From the NCBI GenBank assembly GCA_003990765.1, contig RBNJ01000260.1, forward strand, positions 1-35,139: a stretch of 35,139 nucleotides of DNA, in the 5' to 3' direction. A model generated the notes under the pieces. The model was not told the origin of the DNA. It made no database searches and was given only the letters and a program-made list of their open reading frames with translations. Positions within the stretch are counted from its first letter, which is position 1. Each line of letters starts with the position of its first letter. The position numbers and the translations under genes are program-made. Shown in pieces: positions 1 through 25,211 of the stretch. This DNA comes from Jimgerdemannia flammicorona. Lineage: Eukaryota.

Positions 1-107
1 ACTTAGCCAATAAATTCTTCTGAATATATCTCTCCTGTATCCCCTCTCAGGCTGTCTGGTCCAGTCACACTTTCTTGCCATTCATAATCTCTACAACTGT
101 CCTGGCC
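1..107 (-). mobile_element. Continuation of the LINE ORF1-like frame interrupted by LTR element A
   Basis: Removing element A and one TGGCC copy joins ...VWKEFEA (8133 side) in frame to RTVVEIMNGKKV*LDQTA*EGIQERYIQKNLLAK. Confidence 0.6.
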
Positions 108-406
108 TGTAAGCACACAACCTTCAAGCTACTGAAATCACACATCACCCTCCAACCAAGCCACTGAAATCACACATGACAGCTGAATGAATCTGGAAAT
201 TACCTGTAAGATTATGAAGCTGAGTCAAACAGAAGTCACAGTATACAAAGCTAAGTCAATATGAAGTCATAGAATATAAGATTTATATAAACAAAATCTT
301 ATCAATTAGGACCAAACATATATGTATATACTGAGTACTGAGATGTATCAAATAAAGAACCAAAACAAACTAAACATACAATACCAACTTCTGAACATAC
401 ACAAAT

Positions 407-1493
407 ATGACCACCAAGATCTACAATCATATCTGTGCTGACATTTGAAATGCTATTATCAATCAAGCCACACCCCCTCTGCCCCTCATGAATATCCATA
501 GTCTAGTACCCCTCTACTTTATAGAAGCCTGATGGAATACCCTGAATATGCTTAGTGAGGCCCACCAAATTGGACAAATCTCAAGCTACTACCAGATCAG
601 CCACCTCCTAGAAGACATGGTTGAACACCACCATGATATGGATATTACCCAGATGTCCCAACACTAGAAACTCATTACCTGCAAATATCGAGAACTCTTC
701 TATGAGTACAGTACCTTTATTCCCTATCTCCAAGTTACTACTGCTGAAATGGTTGCTACCCTGTCCTATGGCCAAATCAATGACATGATATAAGAACTCA
801 ATCATAAGTATCTCGAATATATTCAGACTACAGATAGAACCTTCCCACACCCTGATGACCATATCCTGCAAATGCCTCAAGTTAGATATGTCATGAAGGA
901 TGTCTATAGTATAATCTGATTTAATGAAGATGAAGCAGAAGATAATGACCAACATGACCTCAAGCTAAGGATCTCTGCCAACTCTGATCACTTTATCAAT
1001 ACTGCTGATGAACTTACAGTAGTTCATAACCACCTATAAGACCTATTGGGACAATGACTACTGGTATGAATACCAACCCACATTCACTCCTGATTACTTC
1101 AACTATAATGAAGAGACAGGAGAACACAACCTGTACCTTCAGACAACTCTCGAGATTGAACCAACTACTCTACCACCTGAGTACAAGCAACATGAACCAC
1201 AGCTGCCAGCTTACTACAACTCCATGACTCATAGTGCTATAATCTATAGAAGGTATACAGATAGCGAATCTGATGAAAGTGAAGATAATGTACCACTCCT
1301 CTGCCCACCAACTCCATACTCAGTATATGAGACAGACAATGCTATCCTGTGAGATGGTGATAAAGTTCCAATATATTACTATCTTAGTAAACAAGGAGAA
1401 TTAATCCACAAATAACTCTTCCTAGATGACTACTTCATCAGAGATAATATTATTGATGGTGATTTCATCGAAGACTACTCAGACAGTATCTAA
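407..1493 (+). pseudogene. Decayed LTR-internal ORF of unknown function (365-aa consensus), 5' LTR copy
   Basis: ATG407 MTTKIYNH...DFIEDYSDSI-TAA1493. One 11-bp deletion relative to the other LTR. Most stops are sense codons in the other copy. Confidence 0.75.
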
Positions 1494-1682
1494 ATCTATA
1501 GATAGCTTAGCAGTCATAGTATAGTTAGATTAGCCTTATATGATATGACTGTGAACTGACTTAGCAGTCAGATGATCTCTTGATATATCAGATCACACTT
1601 ATACTATATAACTGCATTCTGACTTAGCAAGATACTAAGTGCTATATCTATATTCAGTATAGTTCAGATAGCCCCTCACTAG

Positions 1683-1690
1683 TATAAATA
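1683..1690 (+). promoter_or_regulatory. Putative LTR TATA box
   Basis: TATAAATA in both LTRs (also 7628-7635), downstream of the LTR ORF stop and ~500 bp before the LTR end. Confidence 0.5.
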
Positions 1691-2191
1691 CCCCCCCCCC
1701 CCATATTTCAGAATCTCAGACTTAAATACTTAAAGACTCAAATACATAAAAACATTTCTGAACACTTTTTCACAAATATCCCTTTACACAACTACTCCTA
1801 GTATAGCAATATCATGAATAGCAAATAAATCTATTTATTAATCCATAAACTACTCTTAAGTAAATCTGCTCTCCATTAGGTCCCACTCCTAACCCCATCA
1901 CAAAATTTCCTAATTGGGTATTGTCTGTAGCGATATGCCAATTCAACTAAGCTGGTCTTAGTTTCTTGAACTTCCTAAAATATGGAAAATCCTAAACATC
2001 CAGAACTAGTCCAAAAAAGGGACTTTGGTTGAGATGTCAACCTGATCTTGAAATCAATAAGTATAGAGGATATACTCTATATGAAATTAATCTTGACCTT
2101 AAGAAAACAGTCTTCCAGAATATTCAGAACTTCCAGAAAACTCTTCCAGAACTATATAATAGTTACCCTAATAAGTAACCCTCTTATAACT

Positions 2192-2203
2192 TGGTAGTAG
2201 TGG
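2192..2203 (+). other. Primer-binding site of element A (initiator tRNA-Met type, mutated)
   Basis: TGGTAGTAGTGG 3 nt after the LTR; equals TGGTAGCAGCGG with two C>T changes and resembles the PBS of element B. Confidence 0.75.
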
Positions 2204-3130
2204 TTTACAATCTAATTCTGCTTCAAGATGCTTCCTCATCCTACTACAAACCCCTCTGAGAATTCCTACAAGTTGGTATAAAGCCCAACCTCTGAACCGG
2301 AATTTATCCTGAACTATCTGACAATCTGGAGAGAATTGAACCTAATATATAAGAACAATTTGATCTCCACACCTACAACAAGTGAGACAAACTTCATTCA
2401 AAGAAAGAAATACTTCAGATAAATCAGCAGATAGGTGAAACTCTATATATCAAACTTCTTACACTACATCCAACAAGTTAAGATGAAGAAGGTCTTATAG
2501 AAGTCTTCTTTACTCTTCTTAACAAGAGTTTTGTCAACTCCACAAATCTGAGTAACCTAGGACAATCATCAGCAGTCTTTCTAGCCTTAGTTCCTCATAA
2601 AGCCTAAGCCTCTATAGTCAAGTGGCTCAACTCTACTGACTTTCACTGTACCAGAACCAAGACCACATTATACTATTAATTCTAGAATAGTAAGACCCAC
2701 TATATTCTTAAGAGAAACCCTTCATCAACAATCTGACCCTGAACCAGAAGCAGGCCCTACTACAGCTCTACTTAAGCCTGAAACCAACACTGAACTGAAA
2801 CTTGATTTTGAATTAAGTCTATCTGAAATCAGATATACAACTGAGTCTGTCTACTTTGATGCTGAGCAAACCCAATTACATAGAGACCAAACTGAAGAAG
2901 AGGAGGAGTATCTTAGTAAATTCAATCCTAAATATATCACCGAAGGAGATGTATAATAGAATATACCTATACAGTAACAGATAGCTACCTATTGAGCCCT
3001 TACTCCAGACCCACAACTATTACTCCAGCAACTTACATAGACCCAAAGAACTCCATCACACTCTGTACTAGTACCTCAAGTAGTACCAGTAACACCACTA
3101 CCAATAGTCCAACTGCCTCTAGTGAATAAT

Positions 3131-4120
3131 ATGGCAAACTAATAGATTCTAAATCTCACAGCTCAGGTAGTCATAATGGCAGCAACCATTACTACCTTAG
3201 CTGAACAGATCTGACCAACAAAAAATCTGAGCCTACCTATCTTCAATGGTACTGCACAAGAAGTCCAAAGCTTCATTAGTATAGTTGATACTAACTTTGA
3301 AGCCAATCAATGGACAAATGAGCAAGTTGCTGACTGCCTTCTGACAAACAATCAAGACCACACCCTAGAACAACTCTTTGCTACCACTACAGCCTATATT
3401 TGCCAAGTTGTTATATTCTTCCAAGGACCTGCCAAAGAATGGTGGTAAACCCTTCCTGAAAAACCCCTTATATGAGATACCCAACCTGCAGTAGTTGCCC
3501 AGAATACAGCAAATAATGCCCCAGGATATAGAGCCTATCCTACAGCCCCTGGGCTCAAACAACTTATGATTGCTCAATACTACAGCAAAACCATGATTGC
3601 TGAATCTTGAGTAAAACTCTGTAATCTCAAATTTGATATATATGGCAAAGAAGAATTCAAAATCTTCTGTACAAAACTCGAGTCACTTCTGAATACTGTT
3701 GGCCTAGAATATATTGCTAATGGTGAAGTACAAAATAATATAAGAGCAGATAATTTATTTGACACACTGCCTGAATGGCTTACTAGAAAAATCTGAGAAC
3801 AAGGCCACCCAGTTGGTTGTGATCACCAACAATAGTGTCTGGTAAGAATCAAGACTATGATCAAGCAAATCCTAACAGCTGGACCAATTCTGCCCTGAAG
3901 ACAATTCAACAACAAGAAAAAGACTTGGACCAAGAAAGAAGAACCCAAGCACAAAGCATCCCAAGCTCCCTCCACATCCATCTCTTAGATACCCAGAAAT
4001 CATGAACTCACCTAGCTGAGCACTTTTAAAAAACTCACCAAAGGAGAAAGGAATGAACTTTGAAGAAGTGGAGCATACTTCTATTGCTGAAAAACAGAAT
4101 ATATAACAAGTGCCTGTCCT
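3131..4120 (+). pseudogene. Gag (capsid plus CCHC zinc knuckle) of element A
   Basis: LPIFNG and FQGPAKEWW capsid motifs; knuckle remnant YFYC*KTEYITSAC (from CX2CX4HX4C) at ~4076-4117. Confidence 0.85.
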
Positions 4121-4195
4121 AACCAAAAATCCCAAACAGCAATACAAGCAACTGTTACTACTCTGCACTACCTCAATAACCTGATCACTAGAACA

Positions 4196-4604
4196 CTGGA
4201 CTTTGTCAAGTTAAGGCAAACTGCCAAGACCCCAACCAAAGAAAGTCAAAAAGCAGCTGGATATAACCTGTATGTAGCTGAAGAAGCTACAGTCTCTAAC
4301 TGAGAAGTCAAGCGAGTCTATATAGGAATTACTATCCAAATTCCTAAAGAACATGTTAGAAGAATATGCTGTTGTAGTAGCCTAGCATTGAAAGGACTCT
4401 CAGTAGAAGAAGGAGTCATTGATGAAGATTACACAGGCGAAATTATTATCCTTATCTGAAACCATAGTTGAATATCCTTTAAGATCTCCATTGGTTTCTG
4501 TATTGCCCAGATCCTATTCAAAAAAAATTGAGTCAACTCTGACAGTCAAGAAAGTCTCTGAACTACTACCTACTATTCGAGGATCCAAAGGATTTAACTC
4601 ATCA
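4196..4604 (+). pseudogene. dut: dUTPase domain of element A
   Basis: Five motifs in order: AAGYNL, RICCCSSL, GVIDEDYTGEI, GFCIAQ, RGSKGFNSS. Internal stops and one frameshift in an A-run. Confidence 0.92.
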
Positions 4605-4819
4605 AACAAGGCCTCAGCCCAATTTATCATGAATAAAGAAGAATAATTCTACAAGAAAATTGAAGATGGATATGTACCAAGTAGCTGATACCCCCATGGT
4701 ATTAGAATGTACTCTTCCTGAATAATTGACAATTACTTCTCTTATATCAATGAACTGGCTCAAAGAAGAACCAATAGAAGGAAAGCTCTTATAACTGAAA
4801 TTACCACCATTGGATCAGA

Positions 4820-5182
4820 CAAACTACTTATACTTCAAGCTTTTATTAACTGAGCACTTGTCAAGATTATGATAGACAGTGGTACCTCAGGCAACTCATC
4901 AATGAAGAAACAGCTAATAGACTCAAGGTCTTTACCTCCCTGGTACAACAAACTCAAGCAGTTGCTATAGCTGATAGAATCTCCCATGTTATTAGCAAGG
5001 AAGTCCACAATCTACCCTTCCAAATTGGTGACTACTGAGTATATATTACCCTTCAGATTGTACCACTCTCTGACAATGAAATCATTCTTGAGACTCTATG
5101 GTTAAAACAAGAAAACCCCATAATCAATTGGGTAAACCATTCTCTGACTATCAAGAAAGGATATTATAACTTCAAACTACAA
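4820..5182 (+). pseudogene. Retropepsin-type aspartic protease of element A
   Basis: KIMIDSGTSGN (D at 4875) and IILETLWLKQENPIINW (from ILGxPWL...PxIDW). Confidence 0.9.
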
Positions 5183-5616
5183 GGTGAAAAAGTTCTACTA
5201 GACACCTGAGGATATCAAGTTGACAACCTCAAGTACAGACCATCTACAAAGCTGAACAGCAAGTTTATTGGACCATTTAAAGTCATTGCACAAGTCTCTC
5301 TGACCTCCTACAAATTGACACTACCAGATACCATTAATGTCTACCTAGTCTTTAATATCCAATGTCTCAAGTATACAATGAAAATAATGATGAACTATTT
5401 CCAAACTGAACTATAGAACCACCTGTGCCTGTCATTATTAATGACTAAGAAGAATATGAAGTTGAATAAATCCTCAACAAACATGGCTATAAGAACCACC
5501 CTGAATACCTTATCAAATAGAAAGATTACCTAATCCATGATATAATATGGGAACCCAAGACCAATCTTCAGAATGCAACTGACTTAGTTCAGAAATATGA
5601 TTCCTTGAACAACTAA
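5183..5616 (+). pseudogene. Integrase C-terminal GPY/F module plus chromodomain of element A
   Basis: GEKVLL...KLNSKFIGPFKVI...YKLTLP, then EYEVE*IL...EYLIK*KDY...WEPKTNL; TAA at 5614-5616. Confidence 0.9.
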
Positions 5617-6027
5617 AACTAAATACCCAACAACTATTAGTACATACTATATATTACCTCCTGAATATTATAATTATCATGAACAAAATCAAGGACTCAG
5701 CAAGTCAAGACAAAAAATACTGACTCTTTAGAAAAATAGCAAAACTGAAAGCAAGTCTATTCTCCCTATACTACTGGTGGGAAATGAGGCATAGACATTT
5801 AAGAAGATTCCTTAGAGGAAATTCTCCAGCAGTGAATGACATCAGAATTACTTCTAACATATAGCATTGAACACATGACCCTTTAACATATGAATCCAAT
5901 GTATTAGGCAACTATACTACAAGCATGCCACTTTCTGAAAAAATAGACTTCACCAGACTTTTTATCTCCCAAATAATATAACAATACTAGAACAAATTAG
6001 AAGGCCCCAACAAGGACATCAAAAGCT

Positions 6028-6040
6028 AAGAAGGAGAGAG
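6028..6040 (+). other. Polypurine tract of element A
   Basis: AAGAAGGAGAGAG one base before the TG of the 3' LTR. Confidence 0.85.
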
Positions 6041-6041
6041 T

Positions 6042-8132
6042 TGTAAGTATACAACCTCCAAGCCACTGAAATCACATATCACCCTCCAACTAAGTCACTG
6101 AAATCATATATGACAGCTGAATGAATCTGGAAATCACCTACAAGATCATAAAGCTGAGTCAAACAGAAGTCACAGTACACAAAGCTGAGTCAATATGAAG
6201 TTATGGAATACAAGATTTATACAAACATAATCTTACTAATCAGGACCAAACATATATATACCAAGCACCAAGACATATCAAACAAAGAACCAAAACAAAC
6301 CAAACATACAATACCAACTCTTGAATATATATAAACATGACTACTGAAATCTACAACTACATTCATACTGATATTTAGAATGCCATTATCAACCAAGCCA
6401 CACCCCCTCTGTCCCTCATGAATATCCATAGTCTAGCACCCCTCTACTTCATGGAAGCCTTATGGAATACCCTGAACATGCTTAGTAAGGTCCACCAAAT
6501 CAGACAAATCTCAAGCTACTATCAGATTGGCTGCCTTCTAGAAGATATGGTTAAACACCACTATGACACAGATATTATCCAGATGTCCCAATACTAGAAA
6601 CTCATCGCTCACAAACATCAAGAACTCTTCTATGAGTATAGCACCTTTATTCTCTACCTCCAAGTTACTACCACTGAAATGATCACTACTCTATCCTATA
6701 ACCAAATTAATGACATGATACAAAAACTCAACCATAAGTACCTTGAATATGTTCAGACCATAGACAGAACCTTTCTGCACCCTGATGACCATATCCTGCA
6801 AATGCCTTAAGTCAGATATATGTACCATAAAGAATGTCTATAGTATAATCTGATTTAATGAAGATGAAGCAAAAGACAATGATCCCTCTGATACCAACAT
6901 GATCTCAAGCCAAGGATCTCTGCCAACTCTGATCACTTTACTAATACTGCTGATGAACTTACAGCAGTTCATAACCACCTACAAGACCTATTAGGATAAT
7001 AACTACTGGTATGAATACCAACCTACATTCACCCTCAATTACTTCAACTATAATGAAGAGACAGGAGAATATAACCCATACCTTCAGATAACTCTCAAGA
7101 TTGAACTAACTACTCTACCATCTGAGTACAAGTGATATGAACTACAGCTGTCAGCTTACTACAACCCTATGATACATAGTACTATAACCTATAGAAGGTA
7201 TGCAGACAGTAAATCTGATGAAAGTGAAGATGATACACCACTCCTCTACCCACTAACTCTATATCTAGTATATGAGACAGACAATGCTATCCTGTGGAAT
7301 AGTAATAAAGTCTCAATATATTACTACCTTAGTAAATAAGGAGAATTAATCTACAAATAACTCTTCCTAGATAACTACTTCATCAGGGATGATATCATTG
7401 ATAGTGATATCATCAAAGACTACCCAGATAGTATCTAAATCTATAGATAGCTTAGCAGTCATAGTATAGTTAGATTAGCCTTATATAATATAACTGTGAA
7501 CTAACTCAGCAGTCAGATAATCTCTTGATATATCAGATCACACTTGTACTACATAACTGCATTCTGACTCAGCAAGGCACTAAGTACTACATCTATATTC
7601 AGCATAGTTCAGATAGTCCCTCACTAGTATAAATATTCCCTTTCCTATACCTCAGAATCTCAGACTTGAACATTTGAAGACTTGAATATATAAGAACATT
7701 CCTGAACACTTTCCCACAAATATCCCTTTACACAACTACTCCTAGTATAGCAATATCATGAATAGCAAATAAACCTATTTAATAACCCACAAACTACTCT
7801 TAAGTAAATCTACTCCCCATTAGGTCCTACTCCTAACCCCATCATAAAATTTCCTAATTGAGTATTGTCTGTAGTAATATGCCAATTCAACTAAGCTGGT
7901 CTTAGTTTCTTGAACTTTCTGAAATATGGAAAATTCTGAACATCCAGAACTAGTCCAAAAAAGGGACTTTAGTTGAGACATTAACCTGATCTTGAAATCA
8001 ATAAGTGTAGAGGACATACTCCATATGAAATTAATCTTGACCTTAAGAAAACAGTCTTTCAGAATATCCAGAACTTCCAGAAAACCCTTCCAGAACTATA
8101 TAATGGTTGCTCTAATAAGTAATCCTCTTATA
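6042..8132 (+). repeat. 3' LTR of element A (2091 bp)
   Basis: Second copy of 108-2188; followed by TSD TGGCC. Confidence 0.95.
6337..7438 (+). pseudogene. Decayed LTR-internal ORF, 3' LTR copy
   Basis: ATG6337 to TAA7438 is 1102 bp, i.e. 1098 plus a 4-bp insertion near 6820. Confidence 0.75.
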
Positions 8133-9110
8133 TGGCCTCAAACTCCTTCCATACCAATCTTCTTCTCTCTATGACTCCAGCCAGATCCTCCAATGCCTCC
8201 AGTAAGTTCTTTTCTTCCTCCAGCATTTCTTTCACTCTTGAGATCTTGCACTCCACAGGTCTCCATTTGAAGACTGCCAGCCAGTCTCTCATCTTCCCTG
8301 TATTCTTCTTGTCTATCAGCCATACTCTGATATCTATATTACCAGTTCTGAATTTGGTACCCTCCTAGATCTAAAACCCAACATTCACAATTTCCCCATA
8401 CTCCTTGATGGCCTCAACAATCAACCCCTTGGCTATTTCCTTTGACACTATAGAAATATCCAGCACTGTCAGCTGTACTACTTAGGAATCTCAGTATAAG
8501 TACTGGGCTATAGAGATCACCACCTCCCCCCCTACTACTACTCTCTTCTCTATCACTTCTAATAGTATATCCTCTTTCTTGAAGCCCACCTCCATCTCTT
8601 CCAAACCCTTCAAGAACTTTACCAACATTGCTCTTTTCACCTCCTGGACTAGAAGTCCTAGAATTATCCTTACTATTACCACTAAGCCTCAGAAGTACAA
8701 TATGACAGCAAATTCTGATCTCAATTTCTTGAGTAATAATACTGCCAATAGACCTATTATACCATCTGCCAGATCCCCAGGCCTCATGCCCCCCCCCCTC
8801 TGTCCAGATCTATCATCAACTATCACATCTGGATTTTTTTCCAGATTAGTAGTCTCCTTGCTATCAGTAGTCCCACTCTCCCCAGTTACTACTCCCCCAG
8901 CCCTACTACTCTCACCACTATGGACCACTCCACCAGCCTCTACAGTCCTTGCTATCTCCTTGTCCTTCCTCAGCCAGTCCTCCAGTTTAGTTGTCAGATG
9001 ATCTCCCTTCACCTTATCTGTAAAGCTTGTCCTCTCAGTCTCCTATCTTCCAGTACTGCCTCCTCTCCTTCTATGTCCTCTAGCCAGCAAGCTCTGCATA
9101 CTTTCCTCCA
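8133..9110 (-). mobile_element. Decayed non-LTR (L1-like) ORF1 remnant
   Basis: SFTDKVK N-terminal motif; RRM-like VQLTVLDI...IVEAIKEYGEIVNVGF...EGTKFRTGNIDIRV, resembling LINE ORF1 proteins. Confidence 0.6.
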
Positions 9111-9149
9111 AGTCATGACTCCTCCCTACATACTGCTAGTTAAATATAC

Positions 9150-11115
9150 TAGGGCCACTCTATCCAGTATGTACCTCAGAATACTTGTCAGTTATTATAT
9201 TACTAGTACCTTTTCTCCAAAAATAATGTCTTGAGTATTACCAGAAGTTTGTATAATCCGAATATTACCAGAGAAAGGTATCAAGTCTCTCTAACCTCTG
9301 TAAGGCCCATCTTATATAATTCCTCTGAGCCTCCTTTTCTCTCTCAGCCTCATCTCAGAACTACTGAGCATCAGATTTTAAATACTGCTAATGATCCCCA
9401 ATCTCCAACCCCTATACCCTCTAGCTAATAATTCTAGTACTAATATCTACTACCCATTTATCTTATAAGATGTATTCCTCTAGTAATAAAGTATTTAGAT
9501 ATCAATGTCCAGACCCTCTCCTTATTTCCCTCAAACCTCCTACAGCCCAGCAAACCCCAGTGATCAGATCAAGAATACCAAATTGTCTCAAGAAAACTCC
9601 AGACATCTGCTTCCCAATACTCAGCAGTTAATATCCAGTTGATCTTTAATTCTAGCCCAGCTACTTAGTGAGTGTAGACCTGGTGGCCTTCCCACCCAAG
9701 TTGCCCTATATCCACCAGTAAGCTCAATCTCTCAATCTCTCCCTAGTCTTCTATCTCTCCACTCCTACTCATCATCCTCCTCTCTCTATCAGTTCTGTCT
9801 AGCAGTCTATCACATATTATGTTAAAGTCACCCCCAGACAGTTAATTCTCTCTGCTACAATAACTTTAATATCTTGTAGTCTCCTTATCCATGCAATATG
9901 CTCTCCTCTTTCTGCTGGACAATAACAAGACTCAATAGTTAAGGGGCTCCAGCTCAGCCTCCTCTACACTCCTTATACTACTCTGTTCTCCTAATGTCCA
10001 ATATCTCCAATGTCTCCCTTACTCTTCCTAACCAGAATACTCACCTAACCTTACCATATAACCATACTTCCCCATTCTCTTGTCTAATCCTACCCATCCA
10101 AGCCAGTATTATAGTCTATATTCTATAATAAGAATAGATCTACATCTAGCCCCTTCAACCAGCTGAAGATATTCTGATGCCTTGATACATTCCTCAAGCC
10201 ATTGATATTTAAAGAGAAGATTCTAGTTATACTATTTATATTGAATAATATTCAAAGAGTAATCACTCACTCTACAATTCTATACTCACTATATTACTAG
10301 TAACATCTAGATTCTACTCTACCTTAAGCTCATCTGCCTCTCTCTCTACTGAGTATCTAGTACTTCTAAGATCTCCTAACAGTTCACACCATCCACTGCC
10401 TCTATGTTAGACTGATAGTCCTTACATACTATTTACTACTTCTCTAACTCTTTTCTAGATCTTTATAGATATACTGTCTGCTCATTTGTAATGGTTAGAA
10501 GTACTGTCTCTCTGGTATCATCTATCTCATACTCCTCTGCCTCTAACAGGTCTACCAATAATTTATTATGAAGCTTCTGAACCACCTCCTCTCCTCACAA
10601 GATCTCACCCCAGTATTACTTACTAATCACTCTAAAATCTACCTTATCTAACTTATCTGCTATAATATTTATCAATGTCTTCTATAGCCACTTCTTCTTC
10701 TCTATAGTCTCATTAATACCTAGGGCTACCTCCTGTCTCTCTGTCCTAGACCTCTCTCTGTATTCATCCTCACTAACTCATTTCAGTCCTCCTTCAGCAT
10801 ATCCTACAACTTGTCGGTTCTCTCTCCTCCTGTGGGCACCCCATACTGCACTTGGGCTTCCTCAACTATCATCACATCCTCAGCCACTGTACTCTGCTTG
10901 GAGTTTTCCCCTCTCCTCCAGGGTTACTGCAGGAGCTCCTCTCTTTTTCCCTATCCAAGTACTTGCCCTCAATTCTCCACCAACAGTAGTAGCCTCACCC
11001 TCTGCCCTCCCTCTCAGTTTTGCTAATAGTTTTTTTCTAACATTGCCTCTCTTATACATACCCTCTTTCAGGCAGTCTTATTAAGTTGCACTCTTCTGCT
11101 ATTCACTATCTCAAC
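9150..11115 (-). mobile_element. Decayed L1-like LINE fragment with APE endonuclease (about 10240-9545)
   Basis: RIFSLNINGL (10224-10195), IFSWLKGLDVDLFLL, SCYCPA, GGDFN (9835-9821), LLDR and SDH (9568-9560) in canonical APE order. No RT follows. Confidence 0.85.
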
Positions 11116-12206: not shown

Positions 12207-12608
12207 TGTAACAGTTCTAGTTTCTAAATGAGAAAGTGACTAGTTCTGATAATCCTAAGTAGCTCAAAGAGATACTAAGAATTCAAGTGTTCTCGAAGGA
12301 TTTCTGAGCAAAAATATTCTGAGGCTTTATTCATGAGAACAAAGGGGATATTTATATAAGATCTGAAGGAAGGATCCAGAAGGATCTGAGAAATCAAAAG
12401 AAAATTCCAAGAGGAAAGTTCTCAGCAAAGATGACAAATGATGATAAATAAAGTTCTATAAGTTTCCAGGATATTCCGTGACTAGCTAAATAAGTACTAG
12501 TTAATACTTAGTACCAAGAAGGGGATTTCTAAGTATGCGGAAAGTGCTGGAAGGTTATAGAATATTCAAGAAAGACAGAAAAGAAATAAACTATGCTAAA
12601 GTATTACA
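12207..12608 (-). repeat. 3' LTR of element B (402 bp)
   Basis: TGTAA...TTACA; aligns with 17819-18222. Confidence 0.95.
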
Positions 12609-12621
12609 TCTCCCCCTCCTT
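12609..12621 (-). other. Polypurine tract of element B
   Basis: AAGGAGGGGGAGA on the minus strand, abutting the 3' LTR. Confidence 0.9.
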
Positions 12622-12936
12622 AAGAATCAATATTCTCATTGAATTCTCAAAGTTACACATAATAAACAGTAAGACTAAAAGAAACTTCAAACTAAATATA
12701 TCAACTCATTGGCAAGGATTGGCCATCTTTGTATAAGGTAAGGGCCAAAGTATTATCTTGATTGGATGAGAACTGGTTTGAACCTCATTAATTGTAGGAT
12801 TTATAGAGTTTTCCTATATCTTTTGTCTCTGATGCTGTATCCCTTAGAGAGCCCTGATACATAATATGCCTGATCAGTACAGTAGGTCATCTACTATTCA
12901 AGGAGAGAACCTCATGGATAGTCAATGAGTTTCTTT

Positions 12937-15900
12937 TTACTCAAACTCTTGGATGAGGTCTTGGGAATTCTTGAGATTGGTGACAGGTTCCCAGATAGTA
13001 TCATATTCAGAGTAACCCATCTGCTTGATTAGGTATTCTGTGTGACAGTATCAGACTTGCTTGTCTAAGATTTTCTCAACTTCATACTCAATGTGGTCTT
13101 TAACTATGACTGGTGTTGATGGTGTCAGAATTCAGCTAAGATATGAAGGTGACTAGTTCTAGACCTTGAGTTATGACATATGAAATACTGGGTATATATG
13201 CATAGTTGTTGGCAAGTTGAGGTGGTAAGACCAGGTAGAGACTTGCTCAGTGATCTCAAAGGATCCAAGGTACTTGGGCTAGAATTTGGCTGACTGGCAG
13301 TTAACTTGAGATTGAACCTTGATATTGTCAGCTTTGAGTAGAACCATATCACCAATATTGTATATGATATCTCACCGCTTCTTATCTGCATACTTAGCTT
13401 GATATTGCTGAGCCTTTTGCAGGTTTATAGTAGTGATCTTGAGAAGGGAATCCATTTTGTCAATAAGGTTCTGGGCTGTAGAGACTTGTGTGTGACTGGA
13501 TTGCTGGAATGAGACTAGGCTTGTAGGGGTCTCAGGGTTTTGACCATGAAGTAGCTGAAATGGGGAAAGGTCAGTTGACAATTGGTTGGTATTGTTGTAG
13601 GCAAACTCAGTATAGGTCAGATAGTGGTCCCAATCATCTTGCTCATAAGACATATAGTTTCTGAGCATTTGTTCAAGTATTCTGTTTATTCGCTCTATCT
13701 GTCCATCAGTTTGAGGATAGAAGGCAGTAGATATAGCAATTTGGGTTCCAAGGGTCTTGAAGAGTGCTTGCCAGAAGTGACTTGTGAACTTGGGATCATG
13801 GTCACTGATAATTACTTGGGGAAGTCCATAATGGTGAATTCAAGGAAAAGTACACCATCAAGGACAATCTTGTGTACTATTAAGACAAAGTATATATTCC
13901 TGCCAACTCTGAACTATGGTACAAGATTCTTCATGAACATCATGACTCCCCACTAGCCAGTTACCTTGAAACTGAGAAGACCATCAAGAATATCCAATGA
14001 GACTACTACTGACCAAATATGCTCAAGGAAATCAAGAAGTATATCCAAAGCTATGATCTTTATCAAAGAAACAAGTCAAGCAACCAAGTACCTACCGGTC
14101 TTCTACAACTCTTATCAATTCTGACCAAGAAGTTCAAACAAGTCACAATGGACTTCATTGTGCAACTCCCACAAACCAAAACAGGCTATGATGCTATTGC
14201 TGTGTTTGTGGACCATCTCACTAAGATTACAATCACCAAGCCAACCACAACCAATGCCACTGCCCCAGAAATTGCAAGAATCTTCTTCAAGACTGTCTTT
14301 TCTTGATATTCCTTTGTAGAACCAGAGAGTCTTATTTGTATGCCTTCTTGATCTGATTGTAGAATTCAGATGCCACAGTGACTTGTAAGATCATGACAAG
14401 ATCAGGTCTTCTTAACAGTGCATCTGGTACAACTAGAGTTTTGCCAGACTTGTAGATGATGTTTGGGGTAAAGGTCTGAAGTAGTTGACTCCACTTGGCT
14501 TGTTGGTGAGAAAGAGTTGATTGAGTGTTGATGTACTGAAGGGACCTGTGATCAGTAATCATGTTGAACTCAACTTCTTCTAGATAGTATCACTAGGTCT
14601 TGAGGGCATACATGATTGCCAGGAGTTCCTTTTCATGAGTAGCCAGCTTTTGTTCTGCTGGGGACAATTTTCTTAACTCAAAGGCAATAGGTTGGTGTCC
14701 TTGACCATTATCTTGAGAAATGACTGCACTAATGGCAAAGTTAGATGCATCTGTAGTGACTGTAAACTTCAAGTTTGGGTCTATGTTTCTCAGGACAGGT
14801 GCATGGGTCAGGTGGTTCTTGAGTTCTTGAAAAGCTTGTTGACAGAAAGAATCCCAGATATAGGGGACATAGAGATCAGAGTTGGGTTCCTTTCACAGGA
14901 GGTTTGTCAAAGATTCTGCAATGCCAGAGAAGTTTTTAACAAATCGATGATAGTATCCAGCCAGACCAAGGAAGGACCTGAGTTCAGTGAGGTTTGCTGG
15001 TACAGGCCACTGTTCAATGACTTGTATTTTCCTTGGGTTTACTTGAATTTTGGCTGATACAATGTGTCCAAGGTATTCAACTTGATCCTTGAAAAATTCA
15101 CATTTCTTGAGCTTGTTCTTGCAGAGAATCTTGAGGACTTGTTCAATGTGCTTGAGGTGTTCTTCTTCAGTGCTACTAAAGATCAGGATGTCATCAATGT
15201 ATATAAGTACAAAGATATAGAGCTGATCCTTGAAGACAGTTTGCATGAGATCTTGAAAGATTTCTGGCACATTAGTGAGACCAAAGGCTATGACTAGAAA
15301 TTCATAGAGTCCAAAGGGTATTATGAAGGCAGTCTTGGATATGTCTTCTGGCTTGATTCGAATTTGGTGATACCCAGAGGTGAGATCAATCTTAGTGAAG
15401 TACTTTGCATTTTTGAGAGCATCAAAGATTTGATCTATGAGTAGTAGTGGGTAATAGTTCTTGACTATGATTTTGTTGAGTGCTCAGTAGTTTATATATA
15501 TTCACAGAGTATTATCCTTTTTCTTGACAAATAGGACTGGGAAACCAAAGGGTGACTTGCTTGGCTGAATGGCTCCTTGCTCGATGAGTTCATTGAGTTT
15601 CTTCTTGACTGCTTCAATTTTGAGTAGAGATATATAGTATATTTTCTTCTTAGATATAGCTGCATCAGGTACCAACTTGATTTCATAGTCATGGTCTCTT
15701 GACAGTGATAGACCAGGTAGTTTGTCCAGGAAGATATTCTTGTACTTGTTCAGTAGTAACTTGACACTTTCACTAATTGATAGCTTCTTGTCTTCTTTCT
15801 TTGGTCAGATCAGTGCCACAAAGGCACAGATAGCTTTCTTGAGGGCCTTCTTGAACTAAATTGCTGAAAGGGTAGCAATTGGGGTTCTCATCTGAGTCTT

Positions 15901-16265
15901 GTCTGACTTGATGATAATGTTGGCTTCATCTTGAATCAAGATGACTTCATTCTTGGTCCAATAAATCTGAGGGTTGTGCCATGTAAGCCAGGGTTTGCCT
16001 AGGATCAGGTCATGGTCTCCTAGTGGTACTACCTCAAAATCTAAATGTTTCCAGTATTTCTGAATCTTGAGGGGAAGTTTAGCAGCAATTGAGTCAATTG
16101 GTAAGGTGGTGCCATCTGTGGTGACAACTCCACCATTCTTGCTAGCTGGTTTGGTAAGAATCTTGAGCTTGTCGATGAGGTTCTTGTTGATGAAGTTCCC
16201 AACAGCTCTACTGTATGAGAACATCTAGTTCTTGTCCCTTGACTAGACCTTTGAAAATGAGCATT
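12937..16265 (-). pseudogene. Pol of element B: protease, reverse transcriptase, RNase H, integrase, chromodomain
   Basis: DLILGKPWL (PR), IYIDDILI and LRSFLGLAGYY (RT), DASNFA and ITDHRSL (RH), MDFI and ISDHDPKF (IN), EYEVEKIL...WEPVTNL (chromodomain). Many stops and some frameshifts. Confidence 0.95.
13837..14300 (+). other. 464-bp inverted segment of the element B integrase
   Basis: Integrase N-terminal part (HEHHDSP...VTMDFIVQLP...IFFKTVF) reads on the plus strand inside a minus-strand pol. Confidence 0.93.
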
Positions 16266-16300
16266 GAATTGGCTCAGTTCTCAGCTATACTTGCAACTTT

Positions 16301-16711
16301 ATCAGTACTGTCAAAGCCTTTCTGATCTCACTTAGTTGAAGGCAGCTTGGTGACTTCTTTGACAACTGGTAGGGTAGCTCACTCCAGAATGAGCTATGCA
16401 ATTCTGTCTCCTTCATTGACAGTATATGGTTGGTTCTTGTGGTTGACTAGCAGGACTTGCATTTCACCTTGGAAGTCAGGGTCAATGACTTCAGTACTAA
16501 CATTCAATGAATACTTAAAACTGAGGCCAGATCTTAGTACAATTCTTGCATAATATTCCTTGGGGATTTCGACTGAAAGGCCAGTTGGAATGAGCCTTCT
16601 TTCATATGCAGGAATAGTGACTTATTGTACTGCTTGAAGGTCCAAACCAATGGCTCCTTCTGACTGTGCTTGAGAGATCTGGGCCTTGGGGTTGACTCAT
16701 ATGAAATTGAG
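16301..16711 (-). pseudogene. dut: dUTPase domain of element B
   Basis: GAIGLDL, ARIVLRSGL, VIDPDFQGEM, GDRIA*LI, *DQKGFDST motifs. Confidence 0.93.
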
Positions 16712-16789
16712 TATAACTTCTTGTTCAACTGATTGACCTTGAGTGTCTTTGGACAGGACCAGGATCCTCTTTGGTTTAGCAGTTTTCTT

Positions 16790-17697
16790 GGGACATTTAG
16801 TTGCAATATGACCAGACTGATGGCAAAAGAAGCAGGCTCTAGCCTTCTTGAGGCACTTCTTTTTCTTGGGTGTAAGCTTGCCTTTCTTATTCTTGTTAAT
16901 GGTGTCTAGGTCTATGGGGGCAGGTCCAATAGTTCTGACTTTGGATTCCTCCCTTCTGTGGTTGTTGTTGTTAAAAGGCAGTCTCTTCTGTTCAAAGTGG
17001 TAACCATAGTGATGACATCAAATCTATCAGCAATCTTCATTGCTGTATCTAGATCCCTGAGTTCTTCTAGTTCAACACAAACTCAGGTTTGACCTTTCAG
17101 GCCTCAGATATACTTGTCAACCTTCTTATTTTCAGTGATATATAGTAATTCTAGCAGGATTGACAAGAATTGTACATTGTATGCTTGCACAGACTTGAGT
17201 TGTTTGACATTTACCAGATAGTCTCACATGGCCTTGGTGCTGTTGACTGGTTTGAATTAGCCTTAAATAGCATCAGTGAATTCACCCCAGGTCTTGATTC
17301 AGTCAGAGAATCTGATATTCTGGATATGATTTTACCACCAGATTGCAGCATTTCCTCAGAGGAGTATAGTGGTGAATTGGACTAGTGTTGCTTCTTCCAA
17401 ATTGGTCAGTTCTCCATATTGCTCTAATTGGAAAAGCCAGGCATCAGTAGACAGTCCTTCTCTTTGACCATTAAAAGTATCAAGCTTCTGAGGCTTGATA
17501 GTGACTGCTATCAGATATATTGATGTCGATAGAGGTGCAGAGGTATGAGCAGAGGTCTTGCTTTTCTTTCTTTCTATGCATTCTTGAAGTTGAGCAATCT
17601 GAGCTAATATAGTCTGCAAAAGACTCTCAATGGCCCCATTTGACTGAGTAGGGTTTTGCTGTTCCTCTTCTTCTTGCTGATTATATATATGAGACAT
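16790..17697 (-). pseudogene. Gag of element B
   Basis: KLDTFNG...AWLFQLEQY capsid start, PAPIDLD motif, intact knuckle CFFCHQSGHIATKC at ~16834-16793. Confidence 0.9.
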
Positions 17698-17798
17698 TAT
17701 CTGGACCATAGATACTATATGAAGGGTTCTACCCATTATCCTCTATAGTATTGTGACTGATATCTTGAGAGGTGTCTTGATAAGGCTAGGTATAACTT

Positions 17799-17816
17799 AA
17801 CCACCTGCTGCTACCA
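17799..17816 (-). other. 18-nt primer-binding site of element B (initiator tRNA-Met type)
   Basis: TGGTAGCAGCAGGTGGTT two bases from the 5' LTR; TGGTAGC matches the 3' end of fungal and animal initiator tRNAs. Confidence 0.85.
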
Positions 17817-17818
17817 AG

Positions 17819-18222
17819 TATAATGGTTCTAGTTTCTAAATGAGGAAGTGACTAGTTCTGGTAGTCCTAAGTAGCTCAAAGAGATACTAAGAATTTAAGT
17901 GTTCTCAAAGAATTTCTGAGTGAAAATATTCTGAGGCTTTATTCATGAGAACAAAGGGGATATTTATACAAGATCTGAAGGAAGGATCCAGAAGGATCTG
18001 AGAAATCAAAAGAAAATACCAAGAAGAAAGTTCTCAGCAAAGATGACAAATAATAACAAATAAAGTTCTATAAGTTTCCAGAATATTCTGTAACTAGCTA
18101 AATAAGTACTAGTTAATACTTGGTACCAAGAAGGAGATTTCTAAGTATGCGAAAAGTGCTGGAAGATTATAGAATATTCAAGAAAGATAAAGAAAAGAAA
18201 TAAACTATGCTAAAGTATTACA
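17819..18222 (-). repeat. 5' LTR of element B (404 bp)
   Basis: Copy of 12207-12608, flanked by TSD GATAA. Confidence 0.95.
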
Positions 18223-19249
18223 GATAAGATTATTTTTTAATTTTTGATTTATTTTTTATTATTAAAGCCAGCTTATTTATATATTTTTTATCTGTATTTG
18301 TTGCAATATCTAAAGCTCTCAGCTTATACTTATTGTACTTATTGTGATATTCAAAGCTCTCAGCTTATGCTTGTTACTTGTAGAATTATAGACTAGTACT
18401 TATATATTTACTTACTAGTACTAATATAATAAATTGGAGTATTTGTCATTGAATAATATATCTTTAACTTAGTAATAGCTGCAGTTAGTGTCAGGTAAAT
18501 AATATTCAGCTCTTCTATATGTTTTTGAATTTCTTGATCATTATCTACCAATATATTTATTAAAAAGTTATAAATAAGAATAATAGAATAAATTATTGAA
18601 TATTTATAATGAGCCTTAAGATTTATTACTTATTTAAAGCACTTTAGCATACTAATAATATCTTTTAGTATCTGCTAAGTATAATCTTCTATATTTTTAT
18701 AAATCTTTATTAGCTATAACTGTTAAGATTAAAGGCTATTAATAAATTAATTCATTAGATTATTTAAAGAAAAAACTGAAAAATAAAAAAATTAAATATA
18801 ATATAATCAGCTTATCTCTGATAATTCTAAGATCTATTCAACTATTAAATATATTGAATTTCATTAAGTTTTAATATCTAAAATATATAAGTTCTTTTAG
18901 ATTATAGACTCTAAAAGCTTTATATTATGTAGCAAATCTCTCTCAATATTGTAATGATGACTGGATCTTAATAATAATTAATCAGAGCATTGAAATTATT
19001 TCTTCAGAACTATCTTTACTTATATCATCATTAGCTTTTATATAAATAGACTAAAAAGTCCTGAACAGTCAAATTAATAATATAAGTCAAATAGTATATA
19101 TGTATTATATTTACTGATAGTTAAGGCCAGTATAATTGAACTCTGTCTTGATTGTTTGAAAAAATGTAGAATTGTTGGATATATTATCCATTATTATAGC
19201 TAACATCTAGAGTGAAAAATCAATAATTCAAATATAAGATAAAAATCTT

Positions 19250-19430
19250 ATCTTTTTCAAAAACCTGACCTTTTTCAAAAACCTAACCTTTTTTGAAAAC
19301 CTAACTATTTTTGAAAACTTAAAACTCAACCTTTTTTTTGAAAACTTGACTATTTTTGAAAACTCAACTTTTTCAAAAATCTGACCTTTTTTGAAAATCT
19401 AATCTTCTTAAAATATGATCCTTTTGAAAG
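19250..19430. repeat. ~18-bp tandem array inside a probable hAT transposase intron
   Basis: Roughly 8-9 units of TTTTT(CA/TG)AAAACCTGACC between the SENLA and MDNISNN motifs; acceptor-like TAG near 19207. Confidence 0.75.
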
Positions 19431-20109
19431 ACTTGTTCTCTATATATCTTTATCTATATGCTAAAATCTCAAACATAGTTCACAAAGGTACCAGCAAGAT
19501 TTTCACTCAAATAAGATCTTGACAGCTTGATAAAATCAATTAATATATAGTTAAGTTATCAATTTTGACAAATCTAGTATACATTAATTTCAAGAAATAT
19601 ATATATTAGATGATATCTATGTATCAATAATGAAGAATATTTAATCAGATACATTCTATTTCTAAATAAATAAATTGAAATAAGATTAATTCAAAGTTAT
19701 TCAACTTTGAAATATTTGAATTCATATTTAATATTAAAATATTAAATCTTACTTATAGTGTAATTTTGATAGTATCTCATTTTCAGTGAAAGATCAGTCT
19801 AATTTCATTTTGTATAGTTCCAGTAGAAGGAATAGTAATGTCCAGATTCAGATGATAAAAAAGATCTTTTAGCTCTAAATTCTCAACAATTACTATTATA
19901 GATAATTCAGCAAATAAGTTTATCTTGAAATAACTTTATAGAGAATCTTAGCTATTTAAAAAATTATTAAGTAGTAATGAATTAATAGTAAAAAAAGAAA
20001 AAAAAGCAGACAAATTATATAAAAACTATACTTTTTAAAAAAAAAGACTCTATTACTTCTATTTGACAACTCTTATAATTTGTTAAAATATACTAATAAA
20101 TTTGTTATC

Positions 20110-23323: not shown

Positions 23324-23439
23324 AATTAGATCGATAAAAAATATTTGGTGCTAAGCGCGATCTTGACATTGTAAATGTAAATGTAGATAATGTCCGTTTT
23401 CGTTGTTCCCCGATCCGATGTGTGACAAGACAATCACCG

Positions 23440-25028: not shown

Positions 25029-25211
25029 TGGTTTTAGTAAACAGCTGAAATGTAGACAAAAGATAGATATTATCATAGCTCTTTTCTTTTGTTGTGATCA
25101 TGATGATTGCATGTAATAATAGCCCAACGGTGGCGAAGCAACCAATGACCGCTTTTCCTCTCCCAACAAAACCCATTCCACCCCTTTCTACACTTTAGAG
25201 AGCGAAACGAA

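What the first reader, a model, noticed from the sequence alone, without database searches (positions are those of the whole stretch)
407..1493. A 365-codon protein gene hidden inside the LTR (U3) of a Ty3/Gypsy element
Seen: the 2.1 kb LTRs each hold a sense frame that the ORF track misses. The 5' copy is 1087 bp (11-bp deletion) and the 3' copy is 1102 bp (4-bp insertion); correcting each with the other gives exactly 1098 bp from ATG to TAA. Most stops are private to one copy. One site is TGA versus TAG (ancestral TGG), and only three stops are shared. The product is acidic and Tyr-rich (YWDNDYWYEYQPTF, DSESDESED) and I do not recognise it. Known: U3-encoded proteins occur in retroviruses (MMTV Sag, part of HIV Nef). 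Inference: an accessory gene, possibly counter-defence, duplicated at each transposition and retained by solo LTRs.
Basis: partly seen in the sequence, partly recalled or inferred. Interest (0 to 1): 0.8.

Follow-up and report, generated by a model that had tools for sequence, protein, structure and literature searches.

The report
Protein gene inside a retrotransposon LTR
Each 2.1-kb terminal repeat of a mutated fungal-type Ty3/Gypsy retrotransposon carries the wreck of a real 365-codon gene for an unknown acidic protein, an unusual place for a retrotransposon gene.

Summary
The window holds a Ty3/Gypsy chromovirus with LTRs at 108-2188 and 6042-8132, a 5-bp target duplication (TGGCC), a polypurine tract and a PBS-like site. 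It is internally deleted: RT, RNase H and the integrase core are missing. The two LTRs differ almost only by RIP-like transitions (240 of 245 differences).

It has 9 internal stops in the 5' copy and 8 in the 3' copy, a lower density than in the element's own gag-pol frame (28 in 732).

Two stop-free database proteins tile the frame. P0006 covers codons 1-128 and starts at the same ATG. P0003 covers codons 115-365, ends at the same residue and spans both indel sites. Contigs from four public runs read sense codons at all four shared stops.

Replacements against P0003 are more conservative than random ones (1 of 1000 simulations reach the observed mean).

No family, fold or other relative was found. 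The N-terminal part is predicted helical at low confidence; the C-terminal part is acidic, Tyr/Pro-rich and has no confident fold.

Placement in U3, the mode of expression and any counter-defence role are not shown.

The parts
103..107 (.). target-site duplication TGGCC, left copy
   Evidence: same 5 bases directly before the 5' LTR and after the 3' LTR
108..2188 (+). 5' LTR (2081 bp), TG...TA ends
   Evidence: repeat of 6042-8132, 88% identical, 240 of 245 differences are transitions
217..278 (+). two tandem 31-nt units, each with the core GCTGAGTCA (219, 250); candidate upstream activating sites ahead of the ORF
   Evidence: 8 of the 9 window matches (up to 1 mismatch) to this 9-mer lie in the two LTRs
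407..1493 (+). LTR ORF, 5' copy: 1087 bp, 9 internal stops, 11-bp deletion after 947
   Evidence: homologues P0006 and P0003
1525..1628 (-). two inverted copies of the 31-41-nt unit (cores at 1557 and 1620) within a 63-nt tandem duplication, 55-126 nt upstream of the TATA box
1683..1690 (+). TATAAATA, candidate core promoter of the genomic RNA; identical in the 3' LTR at 7628-7635
   Evidence: function inferred
1824..1829 (+). only AATAAA between the ORF stop and the LTR end; candidate poly(A) signal (7768-7773 in the 3' LTR)
   Evidence: function inferred
2192..2203 (+). PBS-like TGG... stretch, 3 nt after the 5' LTR
   Evidence: the matching tRNA was not identified
2189..6041 (+). internal region, 3.85 kb: gag (zinc knuckle), dUTPase, protease remnant, then directly the integrase C-terminal SH3 and the chromodomain; RT, RNase H and integrase core absent
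   Evidence: dUTPase 1.5e-23, SH3_Tf2-1 3.3e-11, Chromo 6.5e-07, and no RT, RNase H or rve hit; 28 stops in 732 codons of this frame
6028..6040 (+). polypurine tract, 1 nt before the 3' LTR
6042..8132 (+). 3' LTR (2091 bp)
6337..7438 (+). LTR ORF, 3' copy: 1102 bp, 8 internal stops, 4-bp insertion GTAC at 6822-6825
8133..8137 (.). target-site duplication TGGCC, right copy

Best explanation
The frame is the RIP-inactivated remnant of a genuine accessory gene of about 365 codons. The gene belongs to the LTR of a family of dUTPase-bearing Ty3/Gypsy chromoviruses, probably of a soil fungus.

Shown:
- The gene lies wholly inside both LTRs of a bona fide insertion.
- Other, less mutated or diverged copies keep the same frame open from the same ATG to the same stop.
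- Its protein has evolved under constraint.
- It has no detectable relative outside this repeat family.

Inferred:
- The gene sits in U3, upstream of the TATA box and the poly(A) signal. It would therefore ride at the 3' end of every genomic RNA, beyond the polypurine tract, and reverse transcription would copy it into both LTRs.
- It is most likely expressed as its own roughly 1.5-kb mRNA. A pair of GCTGAGTCA-containing repeats lies 130-190 nt upstream of its ATG, and inverted copies of the same unit precede the TATA box. That mRNA would end at the LTR's single AATAAA.
- On this model every LTR, including a solo LTR, would be a complete gene, co-regulated with the element.

Function, my best guess only (about 1 in 4): a trans-acting regulator of the element's own transcription or silencing, with a helical N-terminal domain and an acidic, aromatic-rich, disordered C-terminal tail of the kind seen in acidic activation domains.

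In this window both copies are dead, and the element also lacks RT, RNase H and the integrase core.
For: The insertion is genuine:
- The LTR pair is 88% identical, with a 5-bp TSD, a PPT and a PBS-like site.
- The internal region holds gag, dUTPase, SH3 and a chromodomain.

The mutation pattern is RIP-like:
- 240 of 245 LTR differences are transitions.
- 101 of 162 C/T differences are at CpA, and 59 of 78 G/A differences are at TpG.

The frame stands out:
- It has 5 stops against 9-40 in the other five frames, and 0 of 2000 shuffles are as open.
- Its stop density (9/360 and 8/364) is below that of the element's own gag-pol frame (28/732).

Two independent open copies tile the frame:
- P0006 is 128 aa from a JGI/IMG contig and matches at E 5.5e-61. 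It starts with the same M-T-T and reads W, R and Q at the window's stop codons 14, 42 and 87.
- P0003 is 247 aa from an ENA contig and matches at E 1.5e-57. It covers codons 115-365, ends at the same ...DSI, runs unbroken across both indel sites, and differs only by in-frame gaps (three aligned blocks).

Contigs of four runs read sense codons at the shared stops:
- 448 A>G, 665 T>C and 1413 T>C in all or nearly all covering contigs.
- A loose end at 916 reads a sense codon at codon 171.
- They carry the 11 bp that the 5' copy lacks.
- Of the 12 listed indel places (21 more were not shown), only 1, in one contig, lies in the ORF.

The protein shows constraint:
- The 64 non-RIP replacements between P0003 and the window lineage have a mean BLOSUM62 of +0.30. 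Random single-step replacements give -0.37 (sd 0.21), and 1 of 1000 runs reaches the observed value.
- Unconstrained drift to the same divergence stays stop-free in 4.2% of 3000 runs.

The cis-elements are enriched in the LTRs: 8 of the 9 window matches to GCTGAGTCA (up to 1 mismatch) lie in the LTRs, in mirrored pairs around the ORF. TATAAATA and the single AATAAA lie downstream of the ORF.
Against: - No transcript start, end or splice was mapped, so U3, the ORF's own promoter and any expression at all are unproven.
- The TATA-like TATATAAA at 285, upstream of the ORF, is a RIP artefact. Other copies read C-rich letters there (loose ends at 269 and 282). A separate promoter would therefore be TATA-less.
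- Across the whole window the GCTGAGTCA count is not above chance (9 against 8.0 expected). Only its concentration in the LTRs is unusual.
- No single open copy spans all 365 codons. P0006 stops at codon 128, the site of a TAA in the 5' copy, and at position 791 only about 40% of the X1 contig depth reads C. Many copies may therefore be truncated there.
- P0003 starts at the Met of codon 115, so in its lineage the ORF might be shorter.
- P0003 and P0006 come from databases of called ORFs, which selects for open copies.
- No function can be read from the protein: no Pfam family, no PDB sequence match, AF2 pLDDT of 29.8 and 49.5, and no Foldseek match below E 1.8.
- The host is inferred, not identified.
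Confidence: 0.75

Rival explanations
1. Leader-ORF model. Transcription starts upstream of position 407, so the ORF lies in a very long R/U5. It would then be the first cistron of the genomic RNA, like the extra ORF upstream of gag in some plant elements, and not a U3 gene.
For: - Two GCTGAGTCA repeat units lie 130-190 nt upstream of the ATG.
- The ATG has an A at -3.
- Extra ORFs upstream of gag are known, for example Retrosat2 ORF0 (PMC3485330, passages read).
Against: - TATAAATA at 1683, preceded by two more copies of the repeat unit, and AATAAA at 1824 give the classical U3-TATA-R-poly(A) layout downstream of the ORF.
- R plus U5 would be about 1.8 kb, and the transcript would meet the poly(A) signal before the PBS.
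- The upstream TATA-like motif is a RIP artefact.
Confidence: 0.13
2. Passenger model. The ORF and its flanks (about 250-1628) are a foreign cassette, either a small terminal-inverted-repeat element or a captured host gene. It landed in an ancestral LTR, is merely carried along, and does nothing for the retrotransposon.
For: - The ORF is bracketed by imperfect inverted repeats: 250-290 against 1525-1565 (41 nt, 73%) and 250-280 against 1598-1628 (31 nt, 81%).
- The protein resembles no retroelement protein.
Against: - There is no transposase-like or host-gene relative among 1.84 billion representatives.
- The ORF is kept open and under amino-acid constraint in a lineage with about a quarter non-RIP replacements (64 of 245 compared positions).
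- Contigs in four runs join the ORF to the neighbouring LTR sequence on both sides (table 8).
- The 'arms' are tandemly duplicated on both sides and sit at UAS distance from the TATA box, as enhancer repeats do.
Confidence: 0.1
3. The frame is a chance or compositional artefact of an A-rich, G-poor repeat. No gene ever existed.
For: - One antisense frame is also rather open: 9 stops after resolving transitions, and an unbroken 115-aa antisense ORF at 608-955 in the 5' copy.
Against: - 0 of 2000 shuffles are as open.
- Two stop-free homologues match the sense frame at E 1e-57 and 1e-61.
- All shared stops are sense codons in other copies.
- Replacements are conservative.
Confidence: 0.02

Closest known systems
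MMTV sag (superantigen gene in the U3 of the mouse mammary tumour virus LTR); recalled from general knowledge, no paper read here
   Same: A complete protein-coding ORF in sense orientation inside the LTR, upstream of the LTR promoter. It is therefore present in both LTRs of every provirus and at the 3' end of the genomic RNA.
   Different: MMTV is a vertebrate betaretrovirus, not a fungal-type chromovirus. There is no sequence relation: no Pfam family at E up to 10 and no hit in the exhaustive search. Sag is a membrane glycoprotein, whereas this protein is acidic and partly disordered, and I saw no evident membrane segment by eye.
Retroviral accessory genes that overlap U3 (HIV/SIV nef, foamy-virus tas/bet); recalled
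   Same: Accessory or regulatory proteins encoded at the 3' end, reaching into U3. Foamy viruses use a second, internal promoter, which resembles the two-promoter layout proposed here.
   Different: Those genes only overlap the LTR, whereas this ORF lies entirely within it, 295 nt inside the LTR edge. No homology was found.
Additional ORFs (aORFs) of LTR retrotransposons: plant aORFs (PMC7264820), Retrosat2 ORF0 (PMC3485330), Boty/BcGypsy1 brtn (PMC8365987); passages read
   Same: Family-specific orphan ORFs of unknown function carried by Ty3/Gypsy elements in most copies. They evolve faster than gag-pol.
   Different: Those are described in the internal region, between pol and the 3' LTR or upstream of gag. 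This one lies beyond the polypurine tract, inside the LTR. The review's text contains none of the phrases 'within the LTR', 'in the LTR' or 'inside the LTR'.
dUTPase-bearing fungal chromoviruses (PMC2864245, passages read)
   Same: The host element has dUTPase between gag and protease and a chromodomain integrase. That paper cites such elements from basidiomycetes and from the ascomycete Tuber.
   Different: In the passages I read, those elements are not described as having kilobase LTRs with an ORF. The neighbouring dUTPase element in this window has LTRs of about 400 bp unrelated to this one.

Membership tests
Ty3/Gypsy chromovirus LTR retrotransposon (the carrier element) | Two direct LTRs flanked by a short target-site duplication | tested here: met
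   LTRs at 108-2188 and 6042-8132 are 88% identical. The 5-bp TGGCC is present on both sides.
Ty3/Gypsy chromovirus LTR retrotransposon (the carrier element) | PBS after the 5' LTR and a polypurine tract before the 3' LTR | tested here: met
   TGGTAGTAGTGG at 2192-2203 and AAGAAGGAGAGAG at 6028-6040. The primer tRNA was not identified.
Ty3/Gypsy chromovirus LTR retrotransposon (the carrier element) | gag, PR, RT, RNase H and IN in Gypsy order, with a C-terminal chromodomain | tested here: inconclusive
   A gag zinc knuckle, dUTPase, integrase SH3 (PF24626) and Chromo (PF00385) were found. No RT, RNase H or integrase-core hit was found in any sense frame. This copy is therefore an internal deletion derivative, and the order of the parts that remain fits.
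RIP-type hypermutation of repeats (fungal) | Near-exclusive C-to-T/G-to-A transitions between duplicated copies, with a CpA/TpG preference | tested here: met
   240 of 245 differences are transitions, with CpA at 101 of 162 and TpG at 59 of 78. The context is not CHG-specific: CAT 32, CAA 30, CAC 25, CAG 14. TpA/ApT is 0.95-1.02 against 0.68 in the GC-rich flank. The second index, (CpA+TpG)/(ApC+GpT), is 1.15-1.23, above the value I recall as the usual cut-off.
U3-encoded retroviral accessory gene (MMTV sag type) | Complete ORF inside the LTR, upstream of the LTR's transcription start | tested here: inconclusive
   Inside the LTR: yes. Upstream of TATAAATA and AATAAA: yes. The transcription start itself was not mapped.
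U3-encoded retroviral accessory gene (MMTV sag type) | Sequence or fold relation to Sag, Nef or another known accessory protein | tested here: not met
   No Pfam family at E up to 10. No PDB sequence match at E up to 10. No relative other than its own family among 1.84 billion representatives. No fold match.
aORF of LTR retrotransposons (internal-region extra ORF) | Located in the internal region, between the LTRs | tested here: not met
   The ORF starts 295 nt inside the LTR, beyond the PPT at 6028-6040, and ends 695 nt before the LTR end.
aORF of LTR retrotransposons (internal-region extra ORF) | Present and open in other copies of the family | tested here: met
   P0006 and P0003, and contigs of four runs.

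The most novel reading that the evidence does not exclude
The LTR of this chromovirus family is a self-contained gene. It has its own upstream repeat elements, a 365-codon ORF and a shared poly(A) signal, and it lies in front of the element's genomic promoter. Each transposition would then add two expressible copies, and every solo LTR would stay a working gene. The orphan protein acts in trans, as an activator of LTR transcription or an antagonist of host silencing. As far as my searches show, this would be the first accessory gene of an LTR retrotransposon that lives entirely in the LTR.
Probability: 0.3. Interest if true: 0.8.

Novelty: new variant of a known kind. Interest (0 to 1): 0.62.

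Why it matters
Protein genes inside LTRs are textbook for a few retroviruses. They do not appear in the accounts of LTR-retrotransposon extra ORFs that I could search and read: searches found 0 papers, and one search found 0 occurrences of the phrases in the review.

An LTR-borne gene has unusual population genetics. Its dose doubles with each insertion. It survives the LTR-LTR recombination that deletes gag-pol. It can also be supplied in trans to defective copies such as this one.

The finding also matters for annotation. Pipelines mask LTRs as non-coding, and RIP hides the frame, so such genes are missed systematically.

The protein is an orphan with no detectable relatives, which makes it a candidate for new biology of element-host conflict in fungi. 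Its function remains open.

Tried and rejected
Genome and databases
- No whole genome is held for this window, so genomic copies could not be collected directly.
- The word-based search with the N part, using lengths 199-634, found nothing among 219 candidates. It also missed P0003, which shares a 14-residue identical run with that query. That blank is therefore weak. The same part searched at lengths 99-315 found P0006.
- A staggered full-length protein alignment failed because MAFFT stacked the two halves. The exhaustive profile search therefore covered codons 115-365 only. Codons 1-114 were searched only by the word index.
- The exhaustive search returned two further hits, P0004 and P0005. 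They are tandem-repeat proteins that match a short motif many times, and I rejected them as relatives.
- The JGI metagenome contigs gave no relative among 25 pattern matches and 0 matches to a degenerate pattern for the most conserved peptide. No DNA of P0003 or P0006 could therefore be fetched, and no dN/dS was computed.
- The earlier-findings index held nothing for this place, this sequence or these words.

Structure
- ESM Atlas holds P0003 itself with pLDDT 0.39 and no usable look-alike.
- AF2 of the C part gave pLDDT 29.8 and was not searched further.
- AF2 of the N part gave five helices at pLDDT 49.5. Foldseek against the PDB gave nothing below E 1.8, only generic helical bundles.

Host identity
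- Ten ORFs of the GC-rich flank gave no Pfam family.
- An Atlas look-up with the neighbouring element's RT gave plant and basidiomycete clusters, which is uninformative.

Expression
- No RNA holder was listed by the look-up of sequencing runs.
- Run X4 is only guessed to be RNA, and all four runs are contigs. Their depth profiles, including the much higher X4 depth over 1741-2088, cannot be used for transcript starts, ends or levels.

Motifs
- TGAGTCA alone is not enriched in the window: 9 matches against 6.3 expected.
- TATATAAA at 285 was considered as an ORF promoter and rejected as a RIP artefact.
- I considered that the LTR ORF is a duplicated piece of gag-pol. A tblastn of P0003 against the window hits only the two LTRs.

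Literature
- The searches returned 0 papers. Searches gave listings.
- I read passages only, no whole papers and no supplements. The supplements of PMC2864245 and PMC8365987, which list element structures, may bear on whether similar LTR ORFs were already tabulated.

Full report
**What is in the window.** A direct repeat of about 2.1 kb lies at 108-2188 and 6042-8132.
- It is flanked by the same 5 bases, TGGCC, at 103-107 and 8133-8137.
- A 13-nt polypurine tract precedes the right copy by one base.
- A TGG-initiated PBS-like stretch starts 3 nt after the left copy.
- Read through with X at the stops, the 3.85 kb between the repeats holds a gag part with a zinc knuckle, a dUTPase domain (E 1.5e-23), and a protease-like remnant that I recognised by eye.
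- These are followed directly by the C-terminal SH3 of a Tf2-type integrase (3.3e-11) and a chromodomain (6.5e-07).
- No reverse transcriptase, RNase H or integrase core was found in any sense frame.

This is a genuine insertion of a Ty3/Gypsy chromovirus that is internally deleted and cannot move by itself. A second, unrelated dUTPase chromovirus with LTRs of about 400 bp lies on the minus strand at 12214-18222.

**The mutation process.**
- Over 2076 aligned LTR columns the two copies are 88.2% identical.
- 240 of the 245 differences are transitions.
- 101 of the 162 C/T differences are at CpA, and 59 of the 78 G/A differences are at TpG.
- The base after CpA does not matter: CAT 32, CAA 30, CAC 25, CAG 14.
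- TpA/ApT is 0.95-1.02 in the element against 0.68 in the GC-rich flank.

This is the pattern of repeat-induced point mutation (RIP). Together with the dUTPase chromovirus type, which the literature reports from fungi (PMC2864245, passages), it makes a fungal host likely. The host was not identified.

**Checking the observation.**
- The 5' copy spans 407-1493 (1087 bp) and the 3' copy spans 6337-7438 (1102 bp).
- There is a private 4-bp insertion (GTAC, 6822-6825) in the 3' copy and a private 11-bp deletion in the 5' copy.
- With both removed the frame has 1098 columns, i.e. 365 codons plus TAA.
- There are 9 internal stops in the 5' copy and 8 in the 3' copy.
- Nine of these stops are private. 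One site is TGA in one copy and TAG in the other (codon 14). Three are identical in both copies (codons 87, 171, 340).
- With transition differences resolved, the frame keeps 5 stops including the terminal one. The other five frames keep 9-40, and none of 2000 shuffles is as open.
- The frame carries fewer stops per codon (9/360 and 8/364) than the element's own gag-pol frame (28/732).

**Evidence from elsewhere.**
- The C-terminal part found one protein, P0003. It is 247 aa, from an ENA contig of 998 nt, matched at E 1.5e-57, and was the only hit among 597 candidates.
  - It has no stop and aligns to codons 115-365.
  - It ends with the same residues as the window's frame.
  - It runs without a shift across both indel sites.
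  - This confirms that the 4 bp are an insertion and the 11 bp a deletion.
- The N-terminal part found P0006. It is 128 aa, from a JGI/IMG contig of 1180 nt, matched at E 5.5e-61, and was the only hit among 6 candidates.
  - It reads W, R and Q where the window has stops at codons 14, 42 and 87.
- P0006 versus the window: 108 of 128 residues are identical to at least one window copy, 15 more differ in ways RIP could explain in both copies, 1 in one copy only, and 4 cannot be explained by RIP. It is essentially a clean copy of the same family.
- P0003 versus the window: 160 of 247 residues are identical to at least one copy, 31 are RIP-explainable in both copies, 3 in one copy only, and 53 are not. 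The only gaps are in-frame (three aligned blocks). It is a diverged relative that still keeps the frame.
- Contigs of four public runs were laid on 1-2600. Two are soil metagenomes and two are coded organisms. They hold many pieces 80-99% alike.
  - The commonest differences are T>C and A>G, as expected if the window copy is the mutated one.
  - Position 448 reads G in all covering contigs of all four runs, restoring TGG at codon 14.
  - Position 665 reads C in all or nearly all, giving CAG at codon 87.
  - Position 1413 reads C in all or nearly all, giving CAA at codon 340.
  - A loose end at 916 reads a sense codon at codon 171.
  - One contig carries 11 extra letters at the deletion site, and a loose end at 952 spells them.
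  - Of the 12 indel places listed (21 more were not shown), nine lie upstream of the ATG, two lie downstream of the stop, and one, in a single contig, lies in the ORF.

**Constraint on the protein.**
- I compared P0003 with the window's two-copy reading. After differences that RIP could explain were dropped, 64 replacements remained.
- Their mean BLOSUM62 score is +0.30, and 70% score 0 or more.
- Random single-nucleotide replacements on the same codons average -0.37 (sd 0.21), and 1 of 1000 runs reaches the observed mean.
- Unconstrained drift to the same amino-acid divergence stays stop-free in 4.2% of 3000 runs, indels not counted.

Two caveats apply. Both homologues come from collections of called ORFs, which favours open copies. 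Without their DNA no dN/dS could be computed.

**What the protein is.** It is an orphan.
- A profile of codons 115-365, searched against 1.84 billion representatives, found only P0003 and two repeat proteins that match a short motif by chance.
- Pfam, PDB sequences and the ESM Atlas gave nothing.
- P0003 has a pI of 4.05 and is rich in D, P, Y and E. AF2 gives it no confident fold, with pLDDT 29.8.
- The first 128 residues are predicted as five helices at low confidence (pLDDT 49.5, pTM 0.44). They have no structural match better than E 1.8.

**Layout of the LTR and the likely mode of expression (inferred).**
- Downstream of the ORF lie TATAAATA (1683-1690) and the only AATAAA of that stretch (1824-1829). 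Both are conserved in the 3' LTR. This is the usual U3-TATA-R-poly(A) order and puts the ORF in U3.
- A unit of about 31 nt with the core GCTGAGTCA occurs twice in tandem at 217-278, which is 130-190 nt before the ATG. It occurs twice in inverted orientation at 1525-1628, which is 55-126 nt before the TATA box.
- 8 of the 9 window matches to the core (up to 1 mismatch) lie in the two LTRs, although the window-wide count is not above chance.
- I read these units as enhancer-type repeats that serve two promoters, one for the ORF and one for the genomic RNA. The ORF's mRNA would end at the shared poly(A) signal.
- The TATA-like motif at 285 cannot be used. Other copies read C-rich letters there, so it was made by RIP.
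- The alternatives are a start upstream of the ORF (leader ORF) and a foreign cassette bounded by the inverted repeats. Both are listed as rivals.

**Function.** Nothing measured here speaks to function. My best guess, at about 1 in 4, is a trans-acting regulator of the element. The acidic, aromatic-rich tail is of the type found in acidic activation domains, a resemblance I recall rather than tested.

**Comparison with the known.**
- By position, the nearest analogue is the sag gene in the U3 of MMTV. HIV nef and foamy-virus tas/bet overlap U3 (all recalled). There is no sequence or fold relation to any of them.
- Extra ORFs of LTR retrotransposons are described between pol and the 3' LTR or upstream of gag (PMC7264820, PMC3485330, PMC8365987; passages). 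This ORF lies beyond the polypurine tract, inside the LTR.
- Phrase searches for an ORF within or in the LTR of a retrotransposon returned no paper. The library is incomplete and I read no supplements.
- I therefore rate it a new variant of a known kind.

**Verdict.** The core of the interpretation, a real accessory gene inside the LTR of a Ty3/Gypsy element, is well supported. U3 placement is probable. Expression and function are open.

Noticed in passing
window 12214-18222, minus strand: A second Ty3/Gypsy chromovirus with gag, dUTPase, protease, RT, RNase H, integrase SH3 and a chromodomain. Its LTRs are about 400 bp (12214-12608 and 17826-18222, 94% identical) and unrelated to the 2.1-kb LTR. 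No rve core hit was found. A plus-strand integrase zinc-finger (H2C2) fragment sits at about 13.9-14.1 kb inside it, which suggests a nested or inverted piece.
   Followed up: partly
window 8133-11000: The sequence into which element 1 inserted is strongly C-rich and G-poor on the plus strand (GC skew -0.45 to -0.49). It gave no Pfam hit in six frames and is possibly another degraded repeat.
   Followed up: no
window 18223-20000: An extremely AT-rich stretch (GC 0.21-0.22) lies directly beside element 2. It contrasts with 50-56% GC from 24 to 33 kb, giving an isochore-like boundary.
   Followed up: no
window 24632-24906: Two copies of a 122-nt unit, 153 nt apart and 84% identical, lie in the GC-rich part.
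   Followed up: no
window 407-1493 (protein level): When MAFFT stacked the two halves of the LTR protein, they shared about 20% identity, including a PYLQVTT / LYLQTTL motif. This may be an internal duplication or chance.
   Followed up: no
window 608-955, minus strand: An unbroken 115-aa antisense ORF lies opposite the N part of the LTR gene in the 5' copy. The matching antisense frame is also the second most open frame after resolving transitions (9 stops). This is probably the usual mirror effect of a coding frame.
   Followed up: partly
window 125-180: A tandem 24-nt repeat (CAAGCYACTGAAATCACACATSAC, 32-nt spacing) sits at the very start of the LTR, upstream of the GCTGAGTCA units.
   Followed up: no
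window 22000-33000: Ten ORFs of 136-288 aa in the GC-rich flank match no Pfam family. No recognisable host gene was found in the window.
   Followed up: partly
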